Assembly (NCBI RefSeq): GCF_003945235.1
Contig: NZ_RSDW01000001.1
Span: 150,001 to 182,000 of the forward strand
Direction: 5' to 3'
DNA: 32,000 nt
Source: Edaphobacter aggregans
Lineage (GTDB): Bacteria > Acidobacteriota > Terriglobia > Terriglobales > Acidobacteriaceae
Position 1 is the stretch's first letter. Every line of letters begins with the position of its first letter. Shown one piece after another: positions 3,252 to 19,049 of this stretch. A program made the position numbers and the translations under genes. Below the pieces are notes generated by a model. That model was not told the DNA's origin. It did no database searches and saw only the letters and a list, made by a program, of their open reading frames with translations.

Positions 3252-3447
3252 TGACGGCATATCGGAAGTTATTCACTTGGCCGAAAAACCGGCTTAGCAC
3301 TCATTGAGCTATTCAACTCGATCAGTGTTCTCAGCAGGTGGATGAAAAACCGACTATCCGGAAAGGTGAACCGAACTGCCTGAGAAGTCGCATTATCGGA
3401 AAGTTCAAGCATGGAAAACGAAGTTTCCGACAATCCCGTTTTCCGTG
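3252..3447 (+). repeat. Composite intergenic repeat (modules U-b-a-b-U-b)
   Basis: a module GCACTCATTGAGCTATTCA at 3297-3315. U module GAACTGCCTGAGAAGTCGCATTATCGGAAAGTTC at 3373-3406. b module GAAGTTTCCGACAATCCCGTTTTCCG at 3420-3445. All three recur at other loci in this window. Confidence 0.7.
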
Positions 3448-3960: not shown

Positions 3961-3993
3961 GTGCAGCGTGGTGCCTATAGGGAGATAGTTTCC

Positions 3994-4046
3994 CGAAAGT
4001 CGGCTTGCGGCAACTTGGACCCGAAGTTGCCGAAAACCCCGTTTTT
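3994..4046 (+). repeat. U-b inverted pair (REP/REPIN-like hairpin)
   Basis: CGGCAACTT (4008-4016) and AAGTTGCCG (4024-4032) are perfect reverse complements. They are followed by the b tail GAAAACCCCGTTTTT. Confidence 0.7.
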
Positions 4047-4305
4047 CATGTACTGCGATCCAACAGATGGGATGGTCGCAGAAAGTTGGCATTCCCCAGA
4101 ACGCAAGAATGCTATTAAGGCGCTATATTCCTTTCGCCGACCAAGCTGCCATGAGCGACTCGGACCAGAGTTCTACCTTGTCGGAGATTCTGTCCCCCAA
4201 CCATTGTCCACTAAGACTAATTTTGAAGTTTTGTGCCGGATGTACTTGCCAGCGACAAACCTCCGTCAACTCTGCAAACTTTGCGTTTTCGCTAACAGCA
4301 ATCTT

Positions 4306-5130
4306 CTACTTCTGTCCGCACGTCACCTGACGATACTCGATGGTCTCAACCTTATAGCCCTGGGGCGCCTCGAAGAGCTCCGGATCGGGATCCCCCCGCT
4401 GCAGATCGGATAGTTCCACACGCTTCAATCCGTACCTGGGACCACTCGTCACCTTAAGCAGATCTAGATCGAATTCTTTCGATTTCCAGAGTTCGGTAGT
4501 AGTTTCCGGTATGCCATACGGCCCAACACTTTCGAGTGGCGTAATGGTCCATCGCATGCCATATGCAGTTAAGCCGTGAATTTCCTTCTGGCCAAGATTC
4601 TCCGAAACATAGCGCGTCTTGGTCCGCTTATTCCCTGACAGATCGGCCATCGACCCAATCGTCTCCAACTTTCCTTGCCCAGGCGACGCGGGAACCTTGT
4701 CCCAGTCATCATCATTCGGAAACCTGGATTGATGCTGCCCATGCTCGTCTGCCCAGCAGCCTTTGCGCCCTGACCAATACGGCCAATGCGCCAGGACCGC
4801 TGTCTGACTTATCGAGTCCCAAGTTAGCGTCTGCCGTTTGGCCGGGTCCTGCACAAAAAACGAAAACCGTTGCGTCCTCTGGCCGCCATTCTGAGATATG
4901 TGCTCAGTTCTCTCAGAGATTCTTCCCTGCCGATCGCGGGCAATCACCTCCGCGGAAACGGCATCCCACGAGGAGCCACCAGTCAGAACTCTATTTTCCG
5001 TCACGGTCAGATGTGCCGTGTAAGGCGCAACTGCTGCTGAACTTCCACCATAGATCTTGCTCCGCCAGAAAAGCAAAACAGCAGCAACACAAACGATCGA
5101 CAATGCCAGAACTAAATATCGATGACGCAT
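4306..5130 (-). CDS. Hypothetical secreted/anchored protein
   Basis: 274-aa ORF with an N-terminal hydrophobic segment LVLALSIVCVAAVLLFW. No family recognised. Confidence 0.6.
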   Translation of the reverse strand: MRHRYLVLALSIVCVAAVLLFWRSKIYGGSSAAVAPYTAHLTVTENRVLTGGSSWDAVSAEVIARDRQGRISERTEHISQNGGQRTQRFSFFVQDPAKRQTLTWDSISQTAVLAHWPYWSGRKGCWADEHGQHQSRFPNDDDWDKVPASPGQGKLETIGSMADLSGNKRTKTRYVSENLGQKEIHGLTAYGMRWTITPLESVGPYGIPETTTELWKSKEFDLDLLKVTSGPRYGLKRVELSDLQRGDPDPELFEAPQGYKVETIEYRQVTCGQK

Positions 5131-5271
5131 ATCCGTCCCTATTCCTTACAGCTAAGCGCAGCAGTCGCTAGACGCCTGCTCCTAGTGAGGTGGTGGTCAG
5201 TCATTGCTCCCTGCCTCTTCTATGTCAGACATCATAATCCGTGCGGGAGCGGCGGTGATCTTAAGTGATCC

Positions 5272-5340
5272 ACTATGCCTGGGAAGTCACGTTTTCGGCA
5301 AGTTCCCCGCCCGACGATTCTCAAAACCCCGTTTTCAGGA
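5272..5340 (+). repeat. U-b repeat, partly decayed; contains an uninterrupted b/TCAG site
   Basis: ACTATGCCTGGGAAGTCACGTTTTCGGCAAGTTCC followed by CTCAAAACCCCGTTTTCAGGA. The CCCCGTTTTCAGGA tail resembles the reconstructed target of the IS at 6537. Confidence 0.6.
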
Positions 5341-5449
5341 CAGTTCTACGGCGATTTGTCGACAAGTGAAAGAGCTAAGGTCCTGATGTCGGCTAGGTAC
5401 TCGGCGAACCAAAGGAAGAGATACCTCTGACTCGCCGAGCAATTTGCGT

Positions 5450-6274
5450 TTACGACTTTATGAATTCGAGAAGATCAGCATTGATCTGATCTGCATGCGT
5501 CGTCGGCATCCCGTGCGGCAGGCCTTGGTAAACCTTCAGCGTGCCGTTCTTCAGGAGCTTGGCGGCCAGCGGGCCTGCATCGGCGAACGGCACGATCTGG
5601 TCGTCCTCGCTATGCATCACCAGCACCGGAACGGTGATCCTCTTGAGGTCTTCCGTGAGGTCGGTCTCCGACAGGGCCTTGATGCAGTCATATTGGGCCT
5701 TGGTTCCACCCATCATTCCCTGACGCCACCAGTTATCGATCACCCCTTGCGAAACCTTCGCGCCGGGACGGTTGAAACCGTAGAAGGGACCCTCGGGCAC
5801 ATCACGGTAAAACTGGGCCCGGTTGGCCATGCCGGCGCGAAAGCCGTCGAAGAACTCGATCGGCAGGCCGCCCGGATTCGTCGCCGACTTGATCATCACA
5901 GGAGTGATGGCGCTGATCAAGACTGCCTTGGCGACGCGGCCGCCGCCTCCATACTGGGCAACATAACGGGCCACTTCACCGCCGCCGGTCGAGTGGCCGA
6001 CGTGAATGGCGTCTTTCAGGTCGAGGTGCTCCACCAGGGCGGCGCTATCAGTCGCATAGGTGTCCATGTCGTTGCCGAGATCGGTCTGGCTCGACCGGCC
6101 ATGCCCGCGGCGGTCATGCGCGATGACTCGGTATCCGCGCAGCAGGAAGAACAGCATCTGGCTGTCCCAATCGTCCGCGCTGAGCGGCCAGCCGTGGTGG
6201 AACATAATCGGCTGACCTTTTCCCCAATCCTTGTAGTAGATCTCTGTACCGTCCTTCACTGTAATGCTGCTCAT
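5450..6274 (-). CDS. Alpha/beta hydrolase, non-heme chloroperoxidase / arylesterase type
   Basis: 274-aa ORF. The N-terminus [39 protein letters not shown] and the nucleophile elbow GHSTGGGE are typical of cofactor-free haloperoxidases. Confidence 0.9.
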
Positions 6275-6470
6275 GAATCGTTCTCCTGTTGCGGTTGTGT
6301 GCTCTTGTTAGTTGAGCCGGATACATGACTCGTTACCGTGGCTACGGTGAACGCCGGGTAAGTTGACGATAACAGGGGCTGATGAAACCTGGGTTAGGAT
6401 CCGATCTTCGGTTCAGTCCTCGGAAACGCGATCCCCTTTACCGATCTAGCCTAACGTCTCAGCATTGATC

Positions 6471-6536
6471 CGCAGTTCTCGCAAAGTCGGCTTTTGGGAA
6501 ACTTCGGTCGTAGTTGCCGAAAACCCCGTTAATGAG
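6471..6536 (+). repeat. U-b repeat forming the left flank of the degraded IS110 element
   Basis: GCAAAGTCGGCTTTTGGGAAACTTCGG followed by CGTAGTTGCCGAAAACCCCGTTAATGAG. The b module is cut off at the IS boundary. Confidence 0.6.
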
Positions 6537-7849
6537 ATGGTCCGCCGCTTGATCTCCACAGTGAAGTGAGTGATCTTTTGGCAGGTTCAAGGCGGATCAT
6601 CGACATGCAGATACGTTCGGTTGGCATCGATCTCGGCAAGACGACTTTTCACGTCGTAGCCCTGAACGCAGCAGGCAAGGTGCTGTTGCGGAAGAAGTTC
6701 ACCCAGAAGCAGCTCATCACTTTTACCGTCAACATGCAGACTTCCTTGATCGGGATGGAGGCGTGTTCAGGGGCGCACTTCCTCGGACGTGTGCTGCGCG
6801 AACAAGGCCATGACGTGAAGCTGATTCCAGCCCAGTTCGTGAAGCCGTTCGTGAAGTCGAACAAGAACGACTTCCTCGATGCCGAAGCCAACGCCGAGGC
6901 GGTAGACCGGCAGAACATGCGTTTCGTTCCGATCAAGACGGACGACCAGCTTGATCTCCAAGCGATGCATCGTGTGCGCGACCGGCTTGTCGCCCATCGA
7001 ACGTCCGTAATCAACCAGCTGCGAGCCTTCCTGCTCGAGCATGGCATGGTCTTCGCCAAGACTCCCTTCAAGCTGAAGCAGGCGATGCCTGAGATCCTCG
7101 AGAACGCAGATGCGAATCTCACACCACGCATGCGTAACCTCGTCAGCCTGCTATGGAGCGAGTGGAAAGACCTGGAGCAACAGATCGTCGCGATGAACGA
7201 AGAGGTTGAACAGATCGCCTCTTCCGATCCAGCCTGCCAACGACTCCGGCAGATCCCCGGCATAGGCCCCTTGGTTGCGACCGCGATCGTCGCCGCAATC
7301 GGCAACGGAGCGGCCTTCCATAAGGGCCGGGAGTTCTCTCCTGGCTGGGACTTGTCCCAAAACAGCACTCGACCGGCGGCAAGGCAAGGCTGTCCATGGC
7401 GCTCGATCTGCCGTCCTCCGCGTCAAGCGAGAACGATCGCCGTTCGGTCCCTGGCTCAACGCTCTTGAGCGTCGGTCTCCGGTCAAGGTAGTGATCACAG
7501 CCGCAGCCAACAAGCTTGCCCGTATCGCGTGGGCCGTTCTCTCGAGCGGACAGGACTATCGAGCGGTTCCGGACGCAATAACTGCCTAAGCAAGATTAAC
7601 CACCACCGGCATCAAGTTCTCCAACCAAGGTCTGCACCGGATAACTAAGACGAACGAACAGTTCCCCAACGGCGCGCTCGCAACCTGAAATGGTCTTCCA
7701 TGACCGTCCCGTTTATCAGGAAGAGCACGCAGTGCAACTCATCATGGCCAAGAGAGACTCCTCTCCACCTGTAGGCCGAATACATTTGCGCAGACCTGTC
7801 GATCGACCCTTCGCTTTTCCCTTGCAGTCGTGCGGCGGACCATACATTT
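6537..7849 (+). mobile_element. Degraded IS110-family insertion sequence (IS-A)
   Basis: Perfect 12-bp inverted repeats ATGGTCCGCCGC (6537-6548) and GCGGCGGACCAT (7832-7843). TGAG lies on the left flank (6533-6536) and TCAG on the right (7850-7853). The element encloses a broken DEDD transposase and about 255 bp of 3' non-coding sequence. Confidence 0.75.
6605..7589 (+). pseudogene. IS110-family (DEDD) transposase, disrupted by frameshifts and an internal deletion
   Basis: The N-terminus MQIRSVGIDLGKTTFHVVALN... is intact. After GREF the conserved WLGLVPKQHSTGGKARL appears only in a second frame (about 7342). HGARSAVL...WLNALERR...AAANKLARIAWAVL appears only in a third frame. The block normally between GGKxRL and HGAR is missing. 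Confidence 0.85.
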
Positions 7850-7876
7850 TCAGGGAACAAGGCTGATTACTGATTA

Positions 7877-9867: not shown

Positions 9868-10065
9868 CGGTCAAACCGGTTTTGCTTGACCAGCCGCATC
9901 AAGGCAAGACATCAGTCTCCAGCTATTCGGCTGATTTGATTGTCAACCGTTGAGAACAGGCCAATGCACTCGTTTAGACAGCGGAATGCGATTAGTCCTC
10001 ATAAACGCGCCTCTGTTGACCGATGCCCGCTTCGTTCCTGAAAAGTCGCATTTTCGGAATGTTCG
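9868..10065 (+). repeat. Composite intergenic repeat, decayed (b-U-a-U)
   Basis: GGTCAAACCGGTTTTGC (b-like), AGCTATTCGGCTGA (U-like), GCACTCGTTTAGACAGCGG at 9966-9984 (a-like), and CGTTCCTGAAAAGTCGCATTTTCGGAATGTTCG at 10033-10065 (U). Confidence 0.45.
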
Positions 10066-10415: not shown

Positions 10416-10425
10416 TTTCGCTACT

Positions 10426-10453
10426 GCGAACTTACCTAGAACCCCGTTTTACG
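10426..10453 (+). repeat. Isolated b module
   Basis: GCGAACTTACCTAGAACCCCGTTTTACG matches the b consensus GAAGTTGCCGAAAACCCCGTTTTC. Confidence 0.5.
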
Positions 10454-10992: not shown

Positions 10993-11077
10993 GAACTGCC
11001 TGCAATGTCGCATTATCGGCAAGTTCGTGACGTCTGAATCGCCGAGACGGCGAAGTTGCCGAAAACCCCGTTTTGCG
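10993..11077 (+). repeat. U-b inverted pair (best-preserved hairpin copy)
   Basis: GAACTGCCTGCAATGTCGCATTATCGGCAAGTTCG ... CGAAGTTGCCGAAAACCCCGTTTTGCG. The arms TCGGCAAGTTCG (11016-11027) and CGAAGTTGCCGA (11051-11062) pair at 11 of 12 positions. An inner hairpin CGTCT/AGACG sits in the spacer. Confidence 0.7.
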
Positions 11078-11551: not shown

Positions 11552-11787
11552 GCTCCCAGAGTCAGAGGTCTCCCGGTTGCCAGTTTAGTTGACGTTGCTA
11601 GAGCAAGGGAGCGTATGGACGGCGTTGAGGTTATCTCCAACAATCTCCCCGTTCAGCTTCAGGGAAACTTAAGCTCAATTCGCGAAAATAACTCCGTATT
11701 CTTCCTAAAACTCAATGTTGGCATGGGCACGGTTACGCTGTACCTTCATCTGCTTCAGATATTTTCCAGCTGACAAGGAGCTCCTCT

Positions 11788-17702: not shown

Positions 17703-17921
17703 GATCTTCCCAAAGATGGGATTATAGCCTTACCATCCTATCGCCAATGGATTGTTTGAGAGATCGGCTGCTATGTGTCTGAGAGAAGAAGTGGTGATGA
17801 AAATTGTCACTTGACACTAACAGTCAGTATGGAGTGACCGGCGCCGATGCGCTGATCGTGGTTTAGGCTGTGTGTTTATTAGGGCACGCAGTTCAGAGCC
17901 ACAGGCGGAAGGGAGCCGGTC

Positions 17922-19049
17922 ATGAAGGAGAAGGTACGATTTATAGGTTTGGATGTCCATGCCGAGACCATCGCCGTAGCGATAGCCGAACCGGATGGTG
18001 AAGTACGGAGTCTGGGAACGATTCCGAACCGTAGCGAGTCGCTCCGCAAGCTGGTTAGGAAGCTTGGTCCAGCAGAGAAGTTGAGAGCCTGTTATGAGGC
18101 AGGACCGACGGGCTACGTGGTGTATTGGCAACTGACAGAACTGGGTGTACCGTGCGAGGTGGTAGCGCCTACTCTGGTACCGGTTAAAGCGGGTGATCGA
18201 GTAAAGACGGATCGGCGAGATGCGGAGAAGTTGGCACGCTGCTACCGATCTGGAGATCTGACAGCGGTATGGGTTCCGGACGAAGGTTCCGAGGCCTTAC
18301 GCGATCTCGTGCGTGCCCGCGAAGCAGCCAAACAGGATCAGATGCGAGCGCGGCATCGGTTGAGCAAGTTTCTTCTTCGCTCCGGCCAGCGTCCACCAAC
18401 CGGAGTTCGACCATGGACACGCCCCTATCTGATCTGGATCGCGCAGCTACGTTTCACACAGATCGCCCAGGAATCCACGCGACAGGATTACCTGCACGAG
18501 GTCGAGCACATGCGGGAACGGGTAGCGCGTCTGGAGCAAGCCATCACGGAAGCGGTGAAGCTGGCCTCCCCCGCGTTGCAGCAAGTCATTAACGATCTGC
18601 AGGCACTGCGCGGTATCGCGGATATCTCAGCTGTAACCATTGCGGCCGAGCTGGGCCAGGTATCCTGTTTTCACAGTGCCCGGCAACTGATGGGCTATTG
18701 CGGTGCTGTGCCCAGCGAAGACTCCAGTGGCAAGCGAACCAGACGCGGTGGCATCACTAAAACCGGCAACGCGCATTTGCGACGAATCGTTGTCGAAGCA
18801 GCCTGGAGCTATCGTCGTCCTCCATGTATCTGGTACGGACTGCGCAGACGACAGGAGAGCATCTCAGAAGAGGCGAAAGAGATTGCGTGGAAGGCGCAAC
18901 ACCGGCTGCATAAGCGGTATATGAGGCTGGGTGCAGCCGGCAAGGACCAGAGGAAGATTGCTGTTGCAATTGCTCATGAACTGCTGGGCTTCATCTGGGC
19001 TATTGGAGCCAGAGCGGAGACGATCGTCAGGCATCGAGTTGCAGCCTGA
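17922..19049 (+). CDS. IS110-family (DEDD/RuvC-like) transposase
   Basis: 375 aa. The N-terminus is MKEKVRFIGLDVHAETIAVAIAE. C-terminal conserved blocks are LQALRGIADISAVTIAAELG, SARQLMGYCGAVPSEDSSG and GGITKTGNAHLRRIVVEAAW. An RBS GGAAGGGAG lies upstream. Confidence 0.92.
   Translation: MKEKVRFIGLDVHAETIAVAIAEPDGEVRSLGTIPNRSESLRKLVRKLGPAEKLRACYEAGPTGYVVYWQLTELGVPCEVVAPTLVPVKAGDRVKTDRRDAEKLARCYRSGDLTAVWVPDEGSEALRDLVRAREAAKQDQMRARHRLSKFLLRSGQRPPTGVRPWTRPYLIWIAQLRFTQIAQESTRQDYLHEVEHMRERVARLEQAITEAVKLASPALQQVINDLQALRGIADISAVTIAAELGQVSCFHSARQLMGYCGAVPSEDSSGKRTRRGGITKTGNAHLRRIVVEAAWSYRRPPCIWYGLRRRQESISEEAKEIAWKAQHRLHKRYMRLGAAGKDQRKIAVAIAHELLGFIWAIGARAETIVRHRVAA

What the first reader, a model, noticed from the sequence alone, without database searches (positions are those of the whole stretch)
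6471..7853. A second, unrelated and degraded IS110 element shows the same architecture and the same insertion point in the b module
IS-A has 12-bp perfect inverted repeats (6537-6548 and 7832-7843). TGAG lies on the left and TCAG on the right, and the right flank is TCAGGGAAC. Its left flank is the b module ...GTTGCCGAAAACCCCGTTAATGAG. Uninterrupted paralogous sites read CCCCGTTTTCAGGA (5327-5340) and CCCCGTTCAGCTTCAGGGAAAC (11647-11668). The insertion therefore sits at the TCAG of a b module, as for IS-B. Its 3' non-coding region contains CCCGTTTATCAGG (7708-7720). That matches the reconstructed target CCCGTTAATCAGG at 12 of 13 positions. The same region contains TGAAATGGTCTT (7686-7697), which resembles the core plus left end, TGAGATGGTCCG. 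Two divergent transposases share the target module, the core and the embedded-target-copy feature, which argues that this is a mechanism and not a coincidence.
Basis: partly seen in the sequence, partly recalled or inferred. Interest (0 to 1): 0.7.

Follow-up and report, generated by a model that had tools for sequence, protein, structure and literature searches.

The report
Decayed IS1111-type insertion sequence with guide RNA

Summary
IS-A is real. It is a decayed 1317-bp IS1111-group element at window 6530-7846 (+), inserted in a REP-like palindrome (the "b module"). Intact relatives are 1371 bp and encode a 343-aa transposase; 60 complete copies were recovered from Acidobacteriaceae genomes.

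The 12-bp subterminal inverted repeats are confirmed. The left end is not 6537. TAATGAG (6530-6536) is the family's left terminal extension and is conserved in copies that sit in quite different targets. TGAG/TCAG is therefore not a shared core.

The 3' non-coding region encodes a two-lobed bridge/seekRNA with six helices, nine pairs with compensatory changes, and the same fold from RNAalifold. Two 9-nt loop segments covary with the flanks across 26 guide classes (0 of 20,000 permutations reach the observed match).

- CCCGT-TT (7708-7714) is the true left-target guide.
- The adjoining ATCAGG is a conserved stem, not target.
- TGAAATGGTCTT is a deletion scar plus a hairpin arm.

The window copy has lost 1 bp and 46 bp in the transposase gene and 7 nt that carried the right-target guide.

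IS-B uses the same mechanism but a different repeat and crossover. The mechanism is already known (2024), so this is a new member of a known kind, of low interest.

The parts
6507..6529 (+). Left half of the target: left arm and centre of the REP-like 'b module' (GTCGTAGTTGCCGAAAACCCCGT).
   Evidence: Repeat family D2, 7 copies in the window. The same left flank occurs in about 27 of 55 related copies.
6530..7846 (+). IS-A, a decayed IS1111-group insertion sequence: 1317 bp against 1371 bp in intact relatives.
   Evidence: Homology to 60 complete copies starts and ends here. The T-run counts of empty versus occupied sites fit a 7-bp left and 3-bp right extension with no duplication (convention from PMC11187229).
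6530..6536 (+). Left terminal extension TAATGAG. The first T (or TA) is the element-side copy of the crossover position.
   Evidence: Conserved as TA[A/C]TGAG in all subfamilies whatever the flank.
6537..6548 (+). Left subterminal inverted repeat ATGGTCCGCCGC.
6605..7589 (+). Transposase pseudogene (DEDD/RuvC-like N-terminal domain plus PF02371 C-terminal domain). A 1-bp deletion after 7337 shifts the frame just before the GLVPKQHSTG motif. A 46-bp deletion after 7390 removes ...FGISKRGNSYLRKLL.
   Evidence: Pfam, NCBIfam NF033542 on the intact relative, intact 343-aa relatives at 86-96% identity, indel list.
7672..7730 (+). Target-binding lobe of the bridge/seekRNA.
- Outer stem: 7672-7679 with 7723-7730.
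- Inner stem: CCT 7684-7686 with AGG 7718-7720.
- Hairpin: 7691-7706.
It is damaged by a T-to-C change at 7675 and by the 7-nt deletion.
   Evidence: Alignment A1, pair counts and RNAalifold; covariance model hit at 7666-7797.
7687..7690 (+). Scar of a 7-nt deletion between 7687 and 7688 that removed the right-target (top-strand-pairing) guide. Relatives read CCTG-C-TCCC(G/T)(A/G/C)-AAA-TGG; the window reads CCTG-AAA-TGG. The ancestral guide was probably TCCCTGAAA, the reverse complement of this copy's right flank TTTCAGGGA. The deletion lies between two CCTG direct repeats.
7707..7715 (+). Left-target (bottom-strand-pairing) guide TCCCGTTTA. CCCGT+TT equals the left flank plus the crossover TT.
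   Evidence: It changes to GCCGACTT, ACGAGTTT, GGGGTTT and CCGGCTAA in subfamilies with those left flanks.
7732..7791 (+). Presumed donor-binding lobe.
- Outer stem: 7732-7736 with 7787-7791.
- 5' loop AACTCATCA (7736-7744): its reverse complement resembles the left end T-ATGAGAT.
- Hairpins: 7745-7778.
- 3' loop AATACATTT (7779-7787): equals the right end ATACA plus TT.
   Evidence: Structure. The loop segments sit in the same register as in the target lobe and match the element's ends (7 of 7, and 7-8 of 9). No covariation is available because the ends are invariant.
7822..7827 (+). Conserved TTGCAG, a candidate -35 of a promoter completed only in a circular junction (TTGCAG, 17 nt, CATAAT across ACA|TAAT).
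   Evidence: Read from the sequence. CCTTGCAG is conserved in all copies. No sigma-70-like promoter is found in the linear element. Junction promoters are known for this family (PMC11187229). This is an inference.
7832..7843 (+). Right subterminal inverted repeat GCGGCGGACCAT.
7844..7846 (+). Right terminal extension ACA.
7847..7859 (+). Right half of the target (TTTTCAGGGAACA), the right arm of the b module.
   Evidence: Right flanks of relatives vary (TTTTCGGGAAC, TTTGCGGGAAC, TTTCAGGGAAC) and each matches its own guide.

Best explanation
IS-A (6530-7846) is a dead copy of an IS1111-group (IS110-family) insertion sequence that is active and multi-copy in Acidobacteriaceae.

An intact copy has these parts:
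- a 343-aa DEDD transposase;
- 12-bp subterminal inverted repeats, with a 7-bp left and a 3-bp right extension;
- downstream of the gene, a two-lobed non-coding RNA of about 125 nt (bridge RNA, also called seekRNA).

In the first lobe two 9-nt loop segments read the insertion site. The 5' segment is complementary to the top strand of the crossover plus right flank. The 3' segment is identical to the left flank plus crossover, so it pairs with the bottom strand. The two overlap on a TT.

The second lobe carries segments, in the same register, that match the element's own right and left ends. These would hold the joined ends of a circular intermediate.

The element therefore inserts, without duplication, at CCCCGT^TTTT near the centre of the REP-like palindrome GAAGTTGCCGAAAAC-CCC-GTTTTCGGGAACTTC.

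What is shown here: the anatomy, the ends, the RNA fold and the guide-flank covariation. What is inferred from published work on ISEc11, ISPa11 and IS621: the RNA-guided recombination itself, the circular intermediate and the junction promoter.

The window copy cannot act on its own. Its transposase gene has a frameshift and a 46-bp deletion. Its RNA has lost the right-target guide and has three stem-weakening substitutions.
For: Family and ends:
- Pfam PF01548 and PF02371, and NCBIfam 'IS110 family RNA-guided transposase' at 338 bits.
- About 44% identity over 96% of the length to the IS4321/IS5075 transposases.
- 7863 database relatives, typically 343 aa.
- 79 genomic loci in Tunturiibacter, Edaphobacter, Granulicella and related MAGs, often several per genome.
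- 61 complete copies counting the window's, all with the same ends.

Guides:
- The guide segments change with the flanks. Examples: TCCCGAAAA with TTTTCGGGA, TCCCGCAAA with TTTGCGGGA, TCCCTGAAA with TTTCAGGGA, GCCTGAAAA with TTTTCAGGC, TTGCTCAAA with TTTGAGCAA, TGTTACGAA with TTCGTAACA. On the other side, TCCCGTTT, GCCGACTT, ACGAGTTT and GGGGTTT track the left flanks.
- A copy's own flanks match its guides at 11.4 of 14 positions, against 7.2 of 14 for flanks of other classes. None of 20,000 class-level permutations reaches the observed total.

Structure:
- 31 pairs are 96.8% paired, against 32-42% when the partners are slid. Nine pairs show compensatory changes.
- RNAalifold independently predicts 29 of these 31 pairs, covering all six helices.

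Other:
- The order (top-strand complement 5' of bottom-strand complement, overlapping in the target) and the 7/3 extensions are as published for IS1111 elements.
- Lesions of the window copy are listed.
Against: - No experiment: RNA expression, processing, binding to the transposase, circle formation and transposition are all inferred.
- No orthologous empty site was found. The exact crossover rests on paralogous empty sites and T-run counts.
- The left junction always reads TA while the right reads TT. This is not what a 2-nt staggered exchange of identical cores would leave.
- The donor-binding assignment has no covariation support, and its 5' segment matches the left end at only 7-8 of 9 positions.
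- A few subfamilies (L030 reverse copy, L054, L075) need a 1-nt register shift for the right-target guide.
- Rfam 15 has no matching family.
Confidence: 0.9

Rival explanations
1. The element runs 6537-7849, a 4-nt TGAG/TCAG core flanks it and is shared with IS-B, the target is CCCGTTAATCAGG, and a near-complete copy of that target (7708-7720) plus a copy of core and left end (7686-7697) sit in the 3' region.
For: The strings exist at those coordinates. TCAG does occur at both ends of IS-B, at 17824-17827 and 19394-19397.
Against: - AATGAG/ACTGAG is constant across copies whose flanks are CCCCGTT, GGGGTT, CCGACT or AGAGTT.
- Right flanks vary at the supposed core.
- ATCAGG is the 3' arm of a conserved stem, and CCT/AGG never varies.
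- The ATGGTC hairpin arm changes to GGCC or GGTT, with compensation, while the inverted repeat stays ATGGTCC.
- TGAAA exists only because of a 7-nt deletion private to this copy.
- IS-B flanks are a different repeat.
Confidence: 0.03
2. Target choice is made by the transposase protein, which recognises the REP-like hairpin. The flank-like segments in the 3' region are coincidental or are left over from earlier insertions.
For: All the main targets are palindromic REP-like modules. A related IS110-family element, ISPpu10, is reported to need a DNA hairpin at the target in addition to RNA pairing (bioRxiv 10.64898/2026.03.19.712850).
Against: - Single-nucleotide variants of the guide track single-nucleotide variants of the flank within one module type.
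- Non-palindromic targets (AGAGT^TTCGTAACAG) are matched too.
- The segments lie in the loops of a conserved, covarying fold.
A hairpin requirement could still exist on top of RNA guidance.
Confidence: 0.05
3. The window copy is not a fully dead relic. It may be a non-autonomous element that an intact copy elsewhere in the same genome can still mobilise, supplying transposase and RNA in trans.
For: Both inverted repeats, both extensions and both target-derived flanks are intact. Published work shows that the RNA and the transposase act in trans on mini-elements that keep their ends and flanks (PMC11187229). Related genomes hold many intact copies.
Against: Whether this genome holds an intact copy with a TCCCTGAAA-type guide is unknown, since only 32 kb are visible. 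The same decayed insertion is fixed in a soil metagenome contig at 99.8% identity.
Confidence: 0.25

Closest known systems
IS1111-family insertion sequences with a seekRNA (ISEc11, ISPa11, ISKpn4, ISPst6; Siddiquee et al. 2024, PMC11187229)
   Same: - Subterminal inverted repeats of 11-13 bp with asymmetric terminal extensions (7 left, 3 right).
- A transposase of 330-350 aa with the GL-P----(S/T)G motif.
- A long non-coding region downstream of the gene, and no target duplication.
- An RNA whose top-strand-complementary segment lies 5' of the bottom-strand-complementary segment, with the two overlapping in the target.
- Natural redirection by replacement of those segments.
   Different: A different host phylum (Acidobacteriota) and different targets. 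The RNA sequence is not matched by any Rfam model. Nothing is tested experimentally here. This particular copy is decayed and lacks one guide.
IS4321 / IS5075 (IS1111 family; they target the terminal repeats of Tn21-family transposons)
   Same: These are the closest named transposases found: about 44% identity over 96% of the length. The end architecture is the same.
   Different: Different target and different guides. They are plasmid-borne in Enterobacteriaceae.
IS621 bridge RNA system (Durrant et al. 2024, PMC11208160; Hiraizumi et al. 2024, PMC11208158; PDB 8WT6)
   Same: A two-lobed RNA, each lobe being a stem, an internal loop and a hairpin. One lobe reads the target and the other reads the joined element ends. 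Every guide includes the crossover dinucleotide. IS621 also inserts into REP sequences. The C-terminal domain is detectably homologous (E = 6e-12).
   Different: [quoted passage not shown] IS621 has only 2-3 bp subterminal repeats and identical CT cores at both junctions, whereas here the junctions read TA and TT.
REP-targeting IS110-family elements of Pseudomonas (ISPpu9, ISPpu10, ISPa11)
   Same: Insertion at a fixed point inside repetitive extragenic palindromes, in many copies per genome, with an associated small RNA downstream of the transposase gene (PMC12288879).
   Different: The repeats and the hosts are unrelated. Any hairpin requirement is untested here.

Membership tests
IS1111 group of the IS110 family | A DEDD (RuvC-like) N-terminal domain plus a PF02371 C-terminal domain in the transposase. 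| tested here: met
   PF01548 at 1.9e-21 and a truncated PF02371 at 1.4e-05 in the window ORF. The intact relative P0021 matches NF033542 at 338 bits.
IS1111 group of the IS110 family | Transposase of 330-350 aa with a GL-P----(S/T)G motif, related over its full length to IS1111-type transposases. | tested here: met
   Relatives are 343 aa. GLVPKQHSTG is encoded at about 7347-7376, out of frame (GLVPRQHSTG in P0021). Identity to IS4321/IS5075 is 44% over 96% of the length.
IS1111 group of the IS110 family | Subterminal inverted repeats of about 11-13 bp. | tested here: met
   A perfect 12 bp at 6537-6548 and 7832-7843, conserved in 61 copies.
IS1111 group of the IS110 family | Asymmetric terminal extensions beyond the repeats (7 or 6 bp left, 3 bp right) and no target duplication. 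| tested here: met
   Conserved TA[A/C]TGAG on the left and ACA on the right. Empty sites read CCCCG-TTTT-GCGG and GGGG-TTTT-CGGCAAC, whereas occupied sites carry 2+3 T, so only one T is extra. This rests on paralogous, not orthologous, empty sites.
IS1111 group of the IS110 family | The long non-coding region lies downstream of the transposase gene. | tested here: met
   257 nt between the stop codon (7589) and the end (7846), against 75 nt upstream of the ATG at 6605.
seekRNA / bridge RNA-guided element | [quoted passage not shown] | tested here: met
   26 guide classes, and 0 of 20,000 permutations reach the observed match. In the window copy itself only the bottom-strand segment survives.
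seekRNA / bridge RNA-guided element | A conserved secondary structure that presents the guides in internal loops. | tested here: met
   Six helices, 96.8% of cells paired, nine compensatory pairs. RNAalifold gives the same fold.
seekRNA / bridge RNA-guided element | A second loop that pairs with the element's own ends (donor-binding loop). | tested here: inconclusive
   AATACATTT equals the right end ATACA plus TT. The reverse complement of (A/T)CTCATCA matches the left end at 7-8 of 9 positions, in the same register as the target loop. The ends are invariant, so no covariation is possible. The A-to-C change in the subfamily-2 left end is not compensated.
seekRNA / bridge RNA-guided element | The RNA is expressed, binds the transposase and is required for circle formation and insertion. 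| not testable with these tools
   Sequence only. A candidate junction promoter (TTGCAG, 17 nt, CATAAT) forms only if the ends are joined; this is an inference.
IS110 group proper (IS621-type bridge RNA) | [quoted passage not shown] | tested here: not met
   The RNA lies in the right end, and the 5' loop segment is complementary to the top strand. IS-A therefore works like IS621 but is not a member of that group.
Any curated Rfam RNA family | A match to a covariance model at the gathering score. | tested here: not met
   No hit in the window at gathering thresholds. Only chance-level hits (E > 6) in 7560-7860.

The most novel reading that the evidence does not exclude
The IS-A lineage may be co-diversifying with the REP-like repeat families of Acidobacteriaceae. 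Closely related copies carry guide variants tuned to single-base variants of one palindrome. A sister subfamily reads the same palindrome on the opposite strand, and others read a second repeat family. In addition, the systematic TA (left) versus TT (right) junction dinucleotides could mean that IS1111-type elements exchange strands without the 2-nt stagger described for IS621.
Probability: 0.15. Interest if true: 0.5.

Novelty: new member of a known kind. Interest (0 to 1): 0.22.

Why it matters
For annotation:
- The element should be called an IS1111-group pseudo-element spanning 6530-7846.
- Its 3' region should be annotated as a damaged bridge/seekRNA gene, not as a target footprint.
- The surrounding repeats should be recognised as IS landing pads.

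For biology it adds little that is new. RNA-guided target choice by IS110/IS1111 elements, natural retargeting, and insertion into REP sequences are all published.

The set of 60 related copies is a clean natural series of reprogrammed guides in a phylum where these elements have not been studied. It could serve as a source of orthologous recombinase and RNA pairs. The junction asymmetry is a small open point about the IS1111 crossover.

Tried and rejected
- Rfam search at gathering and at permissive thresholds: nothing.
- Exact-protein look-up of the IS-B transposase and of the ankyrin-repeat neighbour: not on record.
- Look-up of the hydrolase neighbour: it gave a metagenome contig with the same insertion, not an empty site.
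- Orthologues of the hydrolase at 94-96% identity: homology to the window stops at about 6414-6428, before the repeat modules, so no orthologous empty site exists there.
- A 2-nt TT core duplicated at both junctions was considered and rejected. It predicts one T fewer in empty sites than is observed.
- The idea that the hairpin arm ATGGTC is a donor guide copying the inverted repeat was rejected. It covaries with its own 3' arm, not with the repeat.
- The idea that CCTGAAA (7684-7690) is the window's intact right-target guide was rejected. It arises from a private 7-nt deletion that fuses the stem to the tail of the guide.
- The covariance model built from IS-A relatives finds no second copy in the window and does not detect the IS-B RNA.
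- No sigma-70-like promoter is found inside the linear element.
Full report
**What is in the sequence**

Window 6537-6548 (ATGGTCCGCCGC) and 7832-7843 (GCGGCGGACCAT) are a perfect 12-bp inverted repeat. Between them lies a broken IS110-family transposase gene. Pfam finds PF01548 (E = 1.9e-21) and only the first 34 positions of PF02371 in the 6566-7468 ORF.

**Relatives**

A protein search with the undamaged N-terminal 244 aa gave 7863 hits. The best are 86-96% identical and typically 343 aa. A scan of one genome per species returned 79 loci, almost all in Acidobacteriaceae (Tunturiibacter, Edaphobacter, Granulicella and many peat or soil MAGs). Several genomes hold multiple copies.

Sixty complete copies plus the window's could be delimited by the two repeats. 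The intact transposase matches NCBIfam NF033542, 'IS110 family RNA-guided transposase'. It is about 44% identical over 96% of its length to the IS4321/IS5075 transposases, which are classical IS1111-family members. Only its C-terminal half is detectably similar to the solved IS621 and ISCro4 transposases.

**Ends**

Aligning all junctions shows that the conserved element begins with TA[A/C]TGAG-ATGGTCCGCCGC and ends with GCGGCGGACCAT-ACA. Four flank pairs illustrate this:

| Subfamily | Left flank | Right flank |
|---|---|---|
| 1 | AAAACCCCGT | TTTTCGGGAAC, TTTGCGGGAAC or TTTCAGGGAAC |
| 2 | AAAACGGGGT | TTTCGGCAAC or TTTGAGCAAC |
| 3 | GCCGAC | TATTCGGCCAA |
| 4 | (A/C)GAGT | TTCGTAACAG |

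TCAG on the right is therefore just one variant of the flank.

This is the published IS1111 architecture: subterminal repeats of 11-13 bp, terminal extensions of 7 (or 6) bp on the left and 3 bp on the right, and no target duplication (PMC11187229).

I checked the extension lengths by counting T's.
- Empty b modules mostly read CCCCG-TTTT-GCGG, while occupied ones read CCCCGTT|...|TTTGCGG.
- For subfamily 2 the empty module is GGGG-TTTT-CGGCAAC and occupied sites read GGGGTT|...|TTTCGGCAAC.
- Only one T is therefore extra.

IS-A is thus 6530-7846 (equivalently 6531-7847), and its insertion point was CCCCGT^TTTTCAGGGAAC.

No orthologous empty site could be found. A metagenome contig carries the same insertion, and more distant orthologues of the neighbouring hydrolase lack the repeats altogether.

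**The target**

The b module is a REP-like palindrome, GAAGTTGCCGAAAAC-CCC-GTTTTCGGGAACTTC. It has seven recognisable copies in the window. About 27 of 55 related copies sit at the same point of such a module. Subfamily 2 sits at the mirror-image point on the opposite strand. Subfamily 3 sits in a second repeat family (GCCGAC^TATTCGGCCAAGTG), of which the window holds four empty copies.

**The 3' non-coding region**

An alignment of the last 290 nt of all copies shows two short segments that change with the flanks, embedded in otherwise conserved sequence.

The first segment is the 9 nt before a conserved TGG. It is the reverse complement of the 9 nt that follow ...CATACA at the right junction:
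- TCCCGAAAA with TTTTCGGGA
- TCCCGCAAA with TTTGCGGGA
- TCCCTGAAA with TTTCAGGGA
- GCCTGAAAA with TTTTCAGGC
- TTGCTCAAA with TTTGAGCAA
- TGTTACGAA with TTCGTAACA
- TGGCCGAAT with ATTCGGCCA

The second segment is the 9 nt after the hairpin. It repeats the last 5 nt of the left flank plus TT: TCCCGTTTA, GCCGACTTA, ACGAGTTT(T/A), AGGGGTTTC, TCCGGCTAA.

A copy's own flanks match its guides at 11.4 of 14 positions on average. Flanks of other guide classes match at 7.2 of 14. With one copy per class (26 classes), none of 20,000 permutations reached the observed total.

The order (top-strand complement first, bottom-strand complement second, overlapping in the target) is the order reported for IS1111-family seekRNAs. 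It is the reverse of the order in IS621.

**Structure**

On an alignment of 30 distinct sequences (A1) I proposed six helices forming two lobes. The 31 pairs are 96.8% paired, against 32-42% when the 3' partners are slid by 1-3 columns. Nine pairs show changes on both sides. For two measures (cells with a change on both sides, and the covariation score) the observed values of 59 cells and 0.193 were reached by 0 of 500 shuffles. RNAalifold, run without my structure, returned 29 of the 31 pairs.

Each lobe is an outer stem, an internal loop with a 9-nt segment on each side, and a hairpin.
- In the first lobe the two loop segments are the target guides just described.
- In the second lobe the 3' segment AATACATTT equals the element's right end ATACA plus TT. 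The reverse complement of the 5' segment (A/T)CTCATCA, which is TGATGAG(A/T)T, matches the left end TAATGAGAT at 7-8 of 9 positions. Both sit in the same register as in the first lobe.

This is the layout of a bridge RNA with a target-binding and a donor-binding loop (PMC11208160). The donor assignment is by analogy and sequence match only, because the ends do not vary.

Of CCCGTTTATCAGG, only CCCGTTT is guide. Within ATCAGG, the AGG is the 3' arm of the invariant CCT/AGG stem, and the motif is present in subfamilies with other targets. The 12-of-13 match was also scored against a wrong target.

TGAAATGGTCTT consists of the end of the stem (TG), the last three bases of the guide (AAA) and the 5' arm of the hairpin (TGGTC). 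That arm changes to GGCC or GGTT, with compensating changes in its partner, while the inverted repeat stays ATGGTCC. It is therefore not a copy of the left end.

**State of the window copy**

Against its six closest intact relatives it differs as follows:
- It lacks 1 bp after 7337. This shifts the frame just before the GLVPKQHSTG motif.
- It lacks 46 bp after 7390.
- It lacks 7 nt after 7687.
- It has one extra base at 7664.
- It has about 4.5% substitutions. These include a stem-breaking T-to-C at 7675, a C-to-T at 7733 (which leaves a G-U pair) and a G-to-A at 7751.

The 7-nt deletion lies between two CCTG repeats (CCTG-CTC-CCTG-AAA) and removes the right-target guide. The ancestral guide was most likely TCCCTGAAA, as in L001, L009 and L058, which fits this copy's right flank TTTCAGGGA. 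The copy therefore has neither a transposase nor a complete guide RNA. Its ends and flanks are intact, so mobilisation in trans cannot be excluded.

**IS-B**

IS-B has 13-bp subterminal repeats (17828-17840 and 19381-19393) and a 375-aa transposase that is 27% identical to that of IS-A. Forty-five distinct related copies from metagenomes have flanks ...TCAACTGTTGCNAACAG | ... | GG(G/C)CAATGCACTCATTGAG. An empty paralogue in the window reads GTCAACTGTTGCCACAGGGCAACGCACTCATTGAGC at about 23632-23667.

That is a different palindrome from the b module, and the shared junction sequence is CAG, not TT. IS-B's 3' region has its own pair of segments: TTGCCCT at 19181-19187, the reverse complement of AGGGCAA, and GATAACAGTCAG at 19213-19224. 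The first tracks the right flank across copies: TTGGCCT with GGCCAA, TTGCCCT with GGGCAA, CTCGGCCT with GGCCGA.

The two elements therefore share architecture and mechanism, but not the target module, the insertion point or the core. The IS-A RNA model does not detect the IS-B RNA.

**Mechanism, shown versus inferred**

Shown here: family membership, ends, target, RNA fold, guide-flank covariation and the lesions.

Inferred from experiments on ISEc11, ISPa11 and ISKpn4 (PMC11187229) and on IS621 (PMC11208160, PMC11208158): the RNA binds the transposase, pairs with both strands of the target and with the joined ends of an excised circle, and directs recombination without duplication.

Joining the ends would create TTGCAG, 17 nt, CATAAT across the junction. 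No promoter-like site exists in the linear element. This fits the junction promoters known in the family, but it is only a sequence reading.

**An open point**

The left junction reads T-A in essentially all copies, while the right junction reads the target's own dinucleotide (usually T-T). If the crossover were a 2-nt staggered exchange of a shared core, as in IS621, both junctions should read alike or be mixed.

**Verdict**

This is a real but ordinary feature: a decayed member of a known class whose mechanism was published in 2024.

Noticed in passing
window 3373-3445, 3987-4048, 5272-5340, 6472-6530, 10031-10064, 10423-10453, 10993-11077; also 507-541, 19500-19534, 19807-19841, 23748-23782: The intergenic regions carry at least three families of REP-like palindromic repeats: 'a' (AAGTCGCATTTTCGGNAAGTTC), 'b' (GAAGTTGCCGAAAACCCCGTTTTCGGGAACTTC) and 'c' (GTGTCCGANATGCCGACTATTCGGCCAAGTG). 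Families b (on both strands) and c are each the landing site of a different IS-A subfamily in related genomes. All window copies except 6507-6530 are empty.
   Followed up: partly
window 17824-19397 (IS-B); 19181-19187 and 19213-19224: IS-B is intact. It has 13-bp subterminal repeats and its own pair of flank-matching segments in the 3' region, and across 45 relatives the first segment tracks single-base variants of the right flank. It sits at the left edge of an 84-nt repeat unit (other copies at 3288 and 23644), not in a b module.
   Followed up: partly
window 6530-6531 versus 7847-7848, and the same junctions in L001-L078: The dinucleotide at the left junction is always TA, while at the right junction it is the target's (usually TT). 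The two 'core' copies thus differ systematically at their second position in about 50 independent insertions. This is unexpected for a 2-nt staggered exchange like that of IS621.
   Followed up: partly
window 7690-7695 and 7744-7749 versus 6537-6542: The hairpins inside both guide loops start AUGGUC or AUGGCC, the same six bases that open the subterminal inverted repeat (ATGGTC). The hairpin arm varies with compensation while the repeat does not, so this may be coincidence or a shared protein-recognition motif.
   Followed up: no
L160 (JGI soil metagenome 3300021475, contig Ga0210392_10133215) = window 5112-6789: A 1678-bp soil metagenome contig is 99.8% identical to the window and carries the same IS-A insertion. 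The decayed copy is therefore fixed in an environmental population, and the window probably comes from a soil Acidobacteriaceae genome.
   Followed up: partly
window 11647-11668: CCCCGTTCAGCTTCAGGGAAAC looks like the right half of a b module with four extra bases (CAGC) at the position where IS-A-type elements insert. It lacks the left arm. Its origin is unknown.
   Followed up: no
L030 (CAVSOH010000018.1), L058, L010, L050, L051: Several related loci hold two family members side by side or nested. For example, L030 has a subfamily-1 copy and a reverse subfamily-3 copy within 5 kb, L058 has two copies 20 nt apart, and L050 has back-to-back right ends. These repeat-rich regions look like insertion hot spots.
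   Followed up: no
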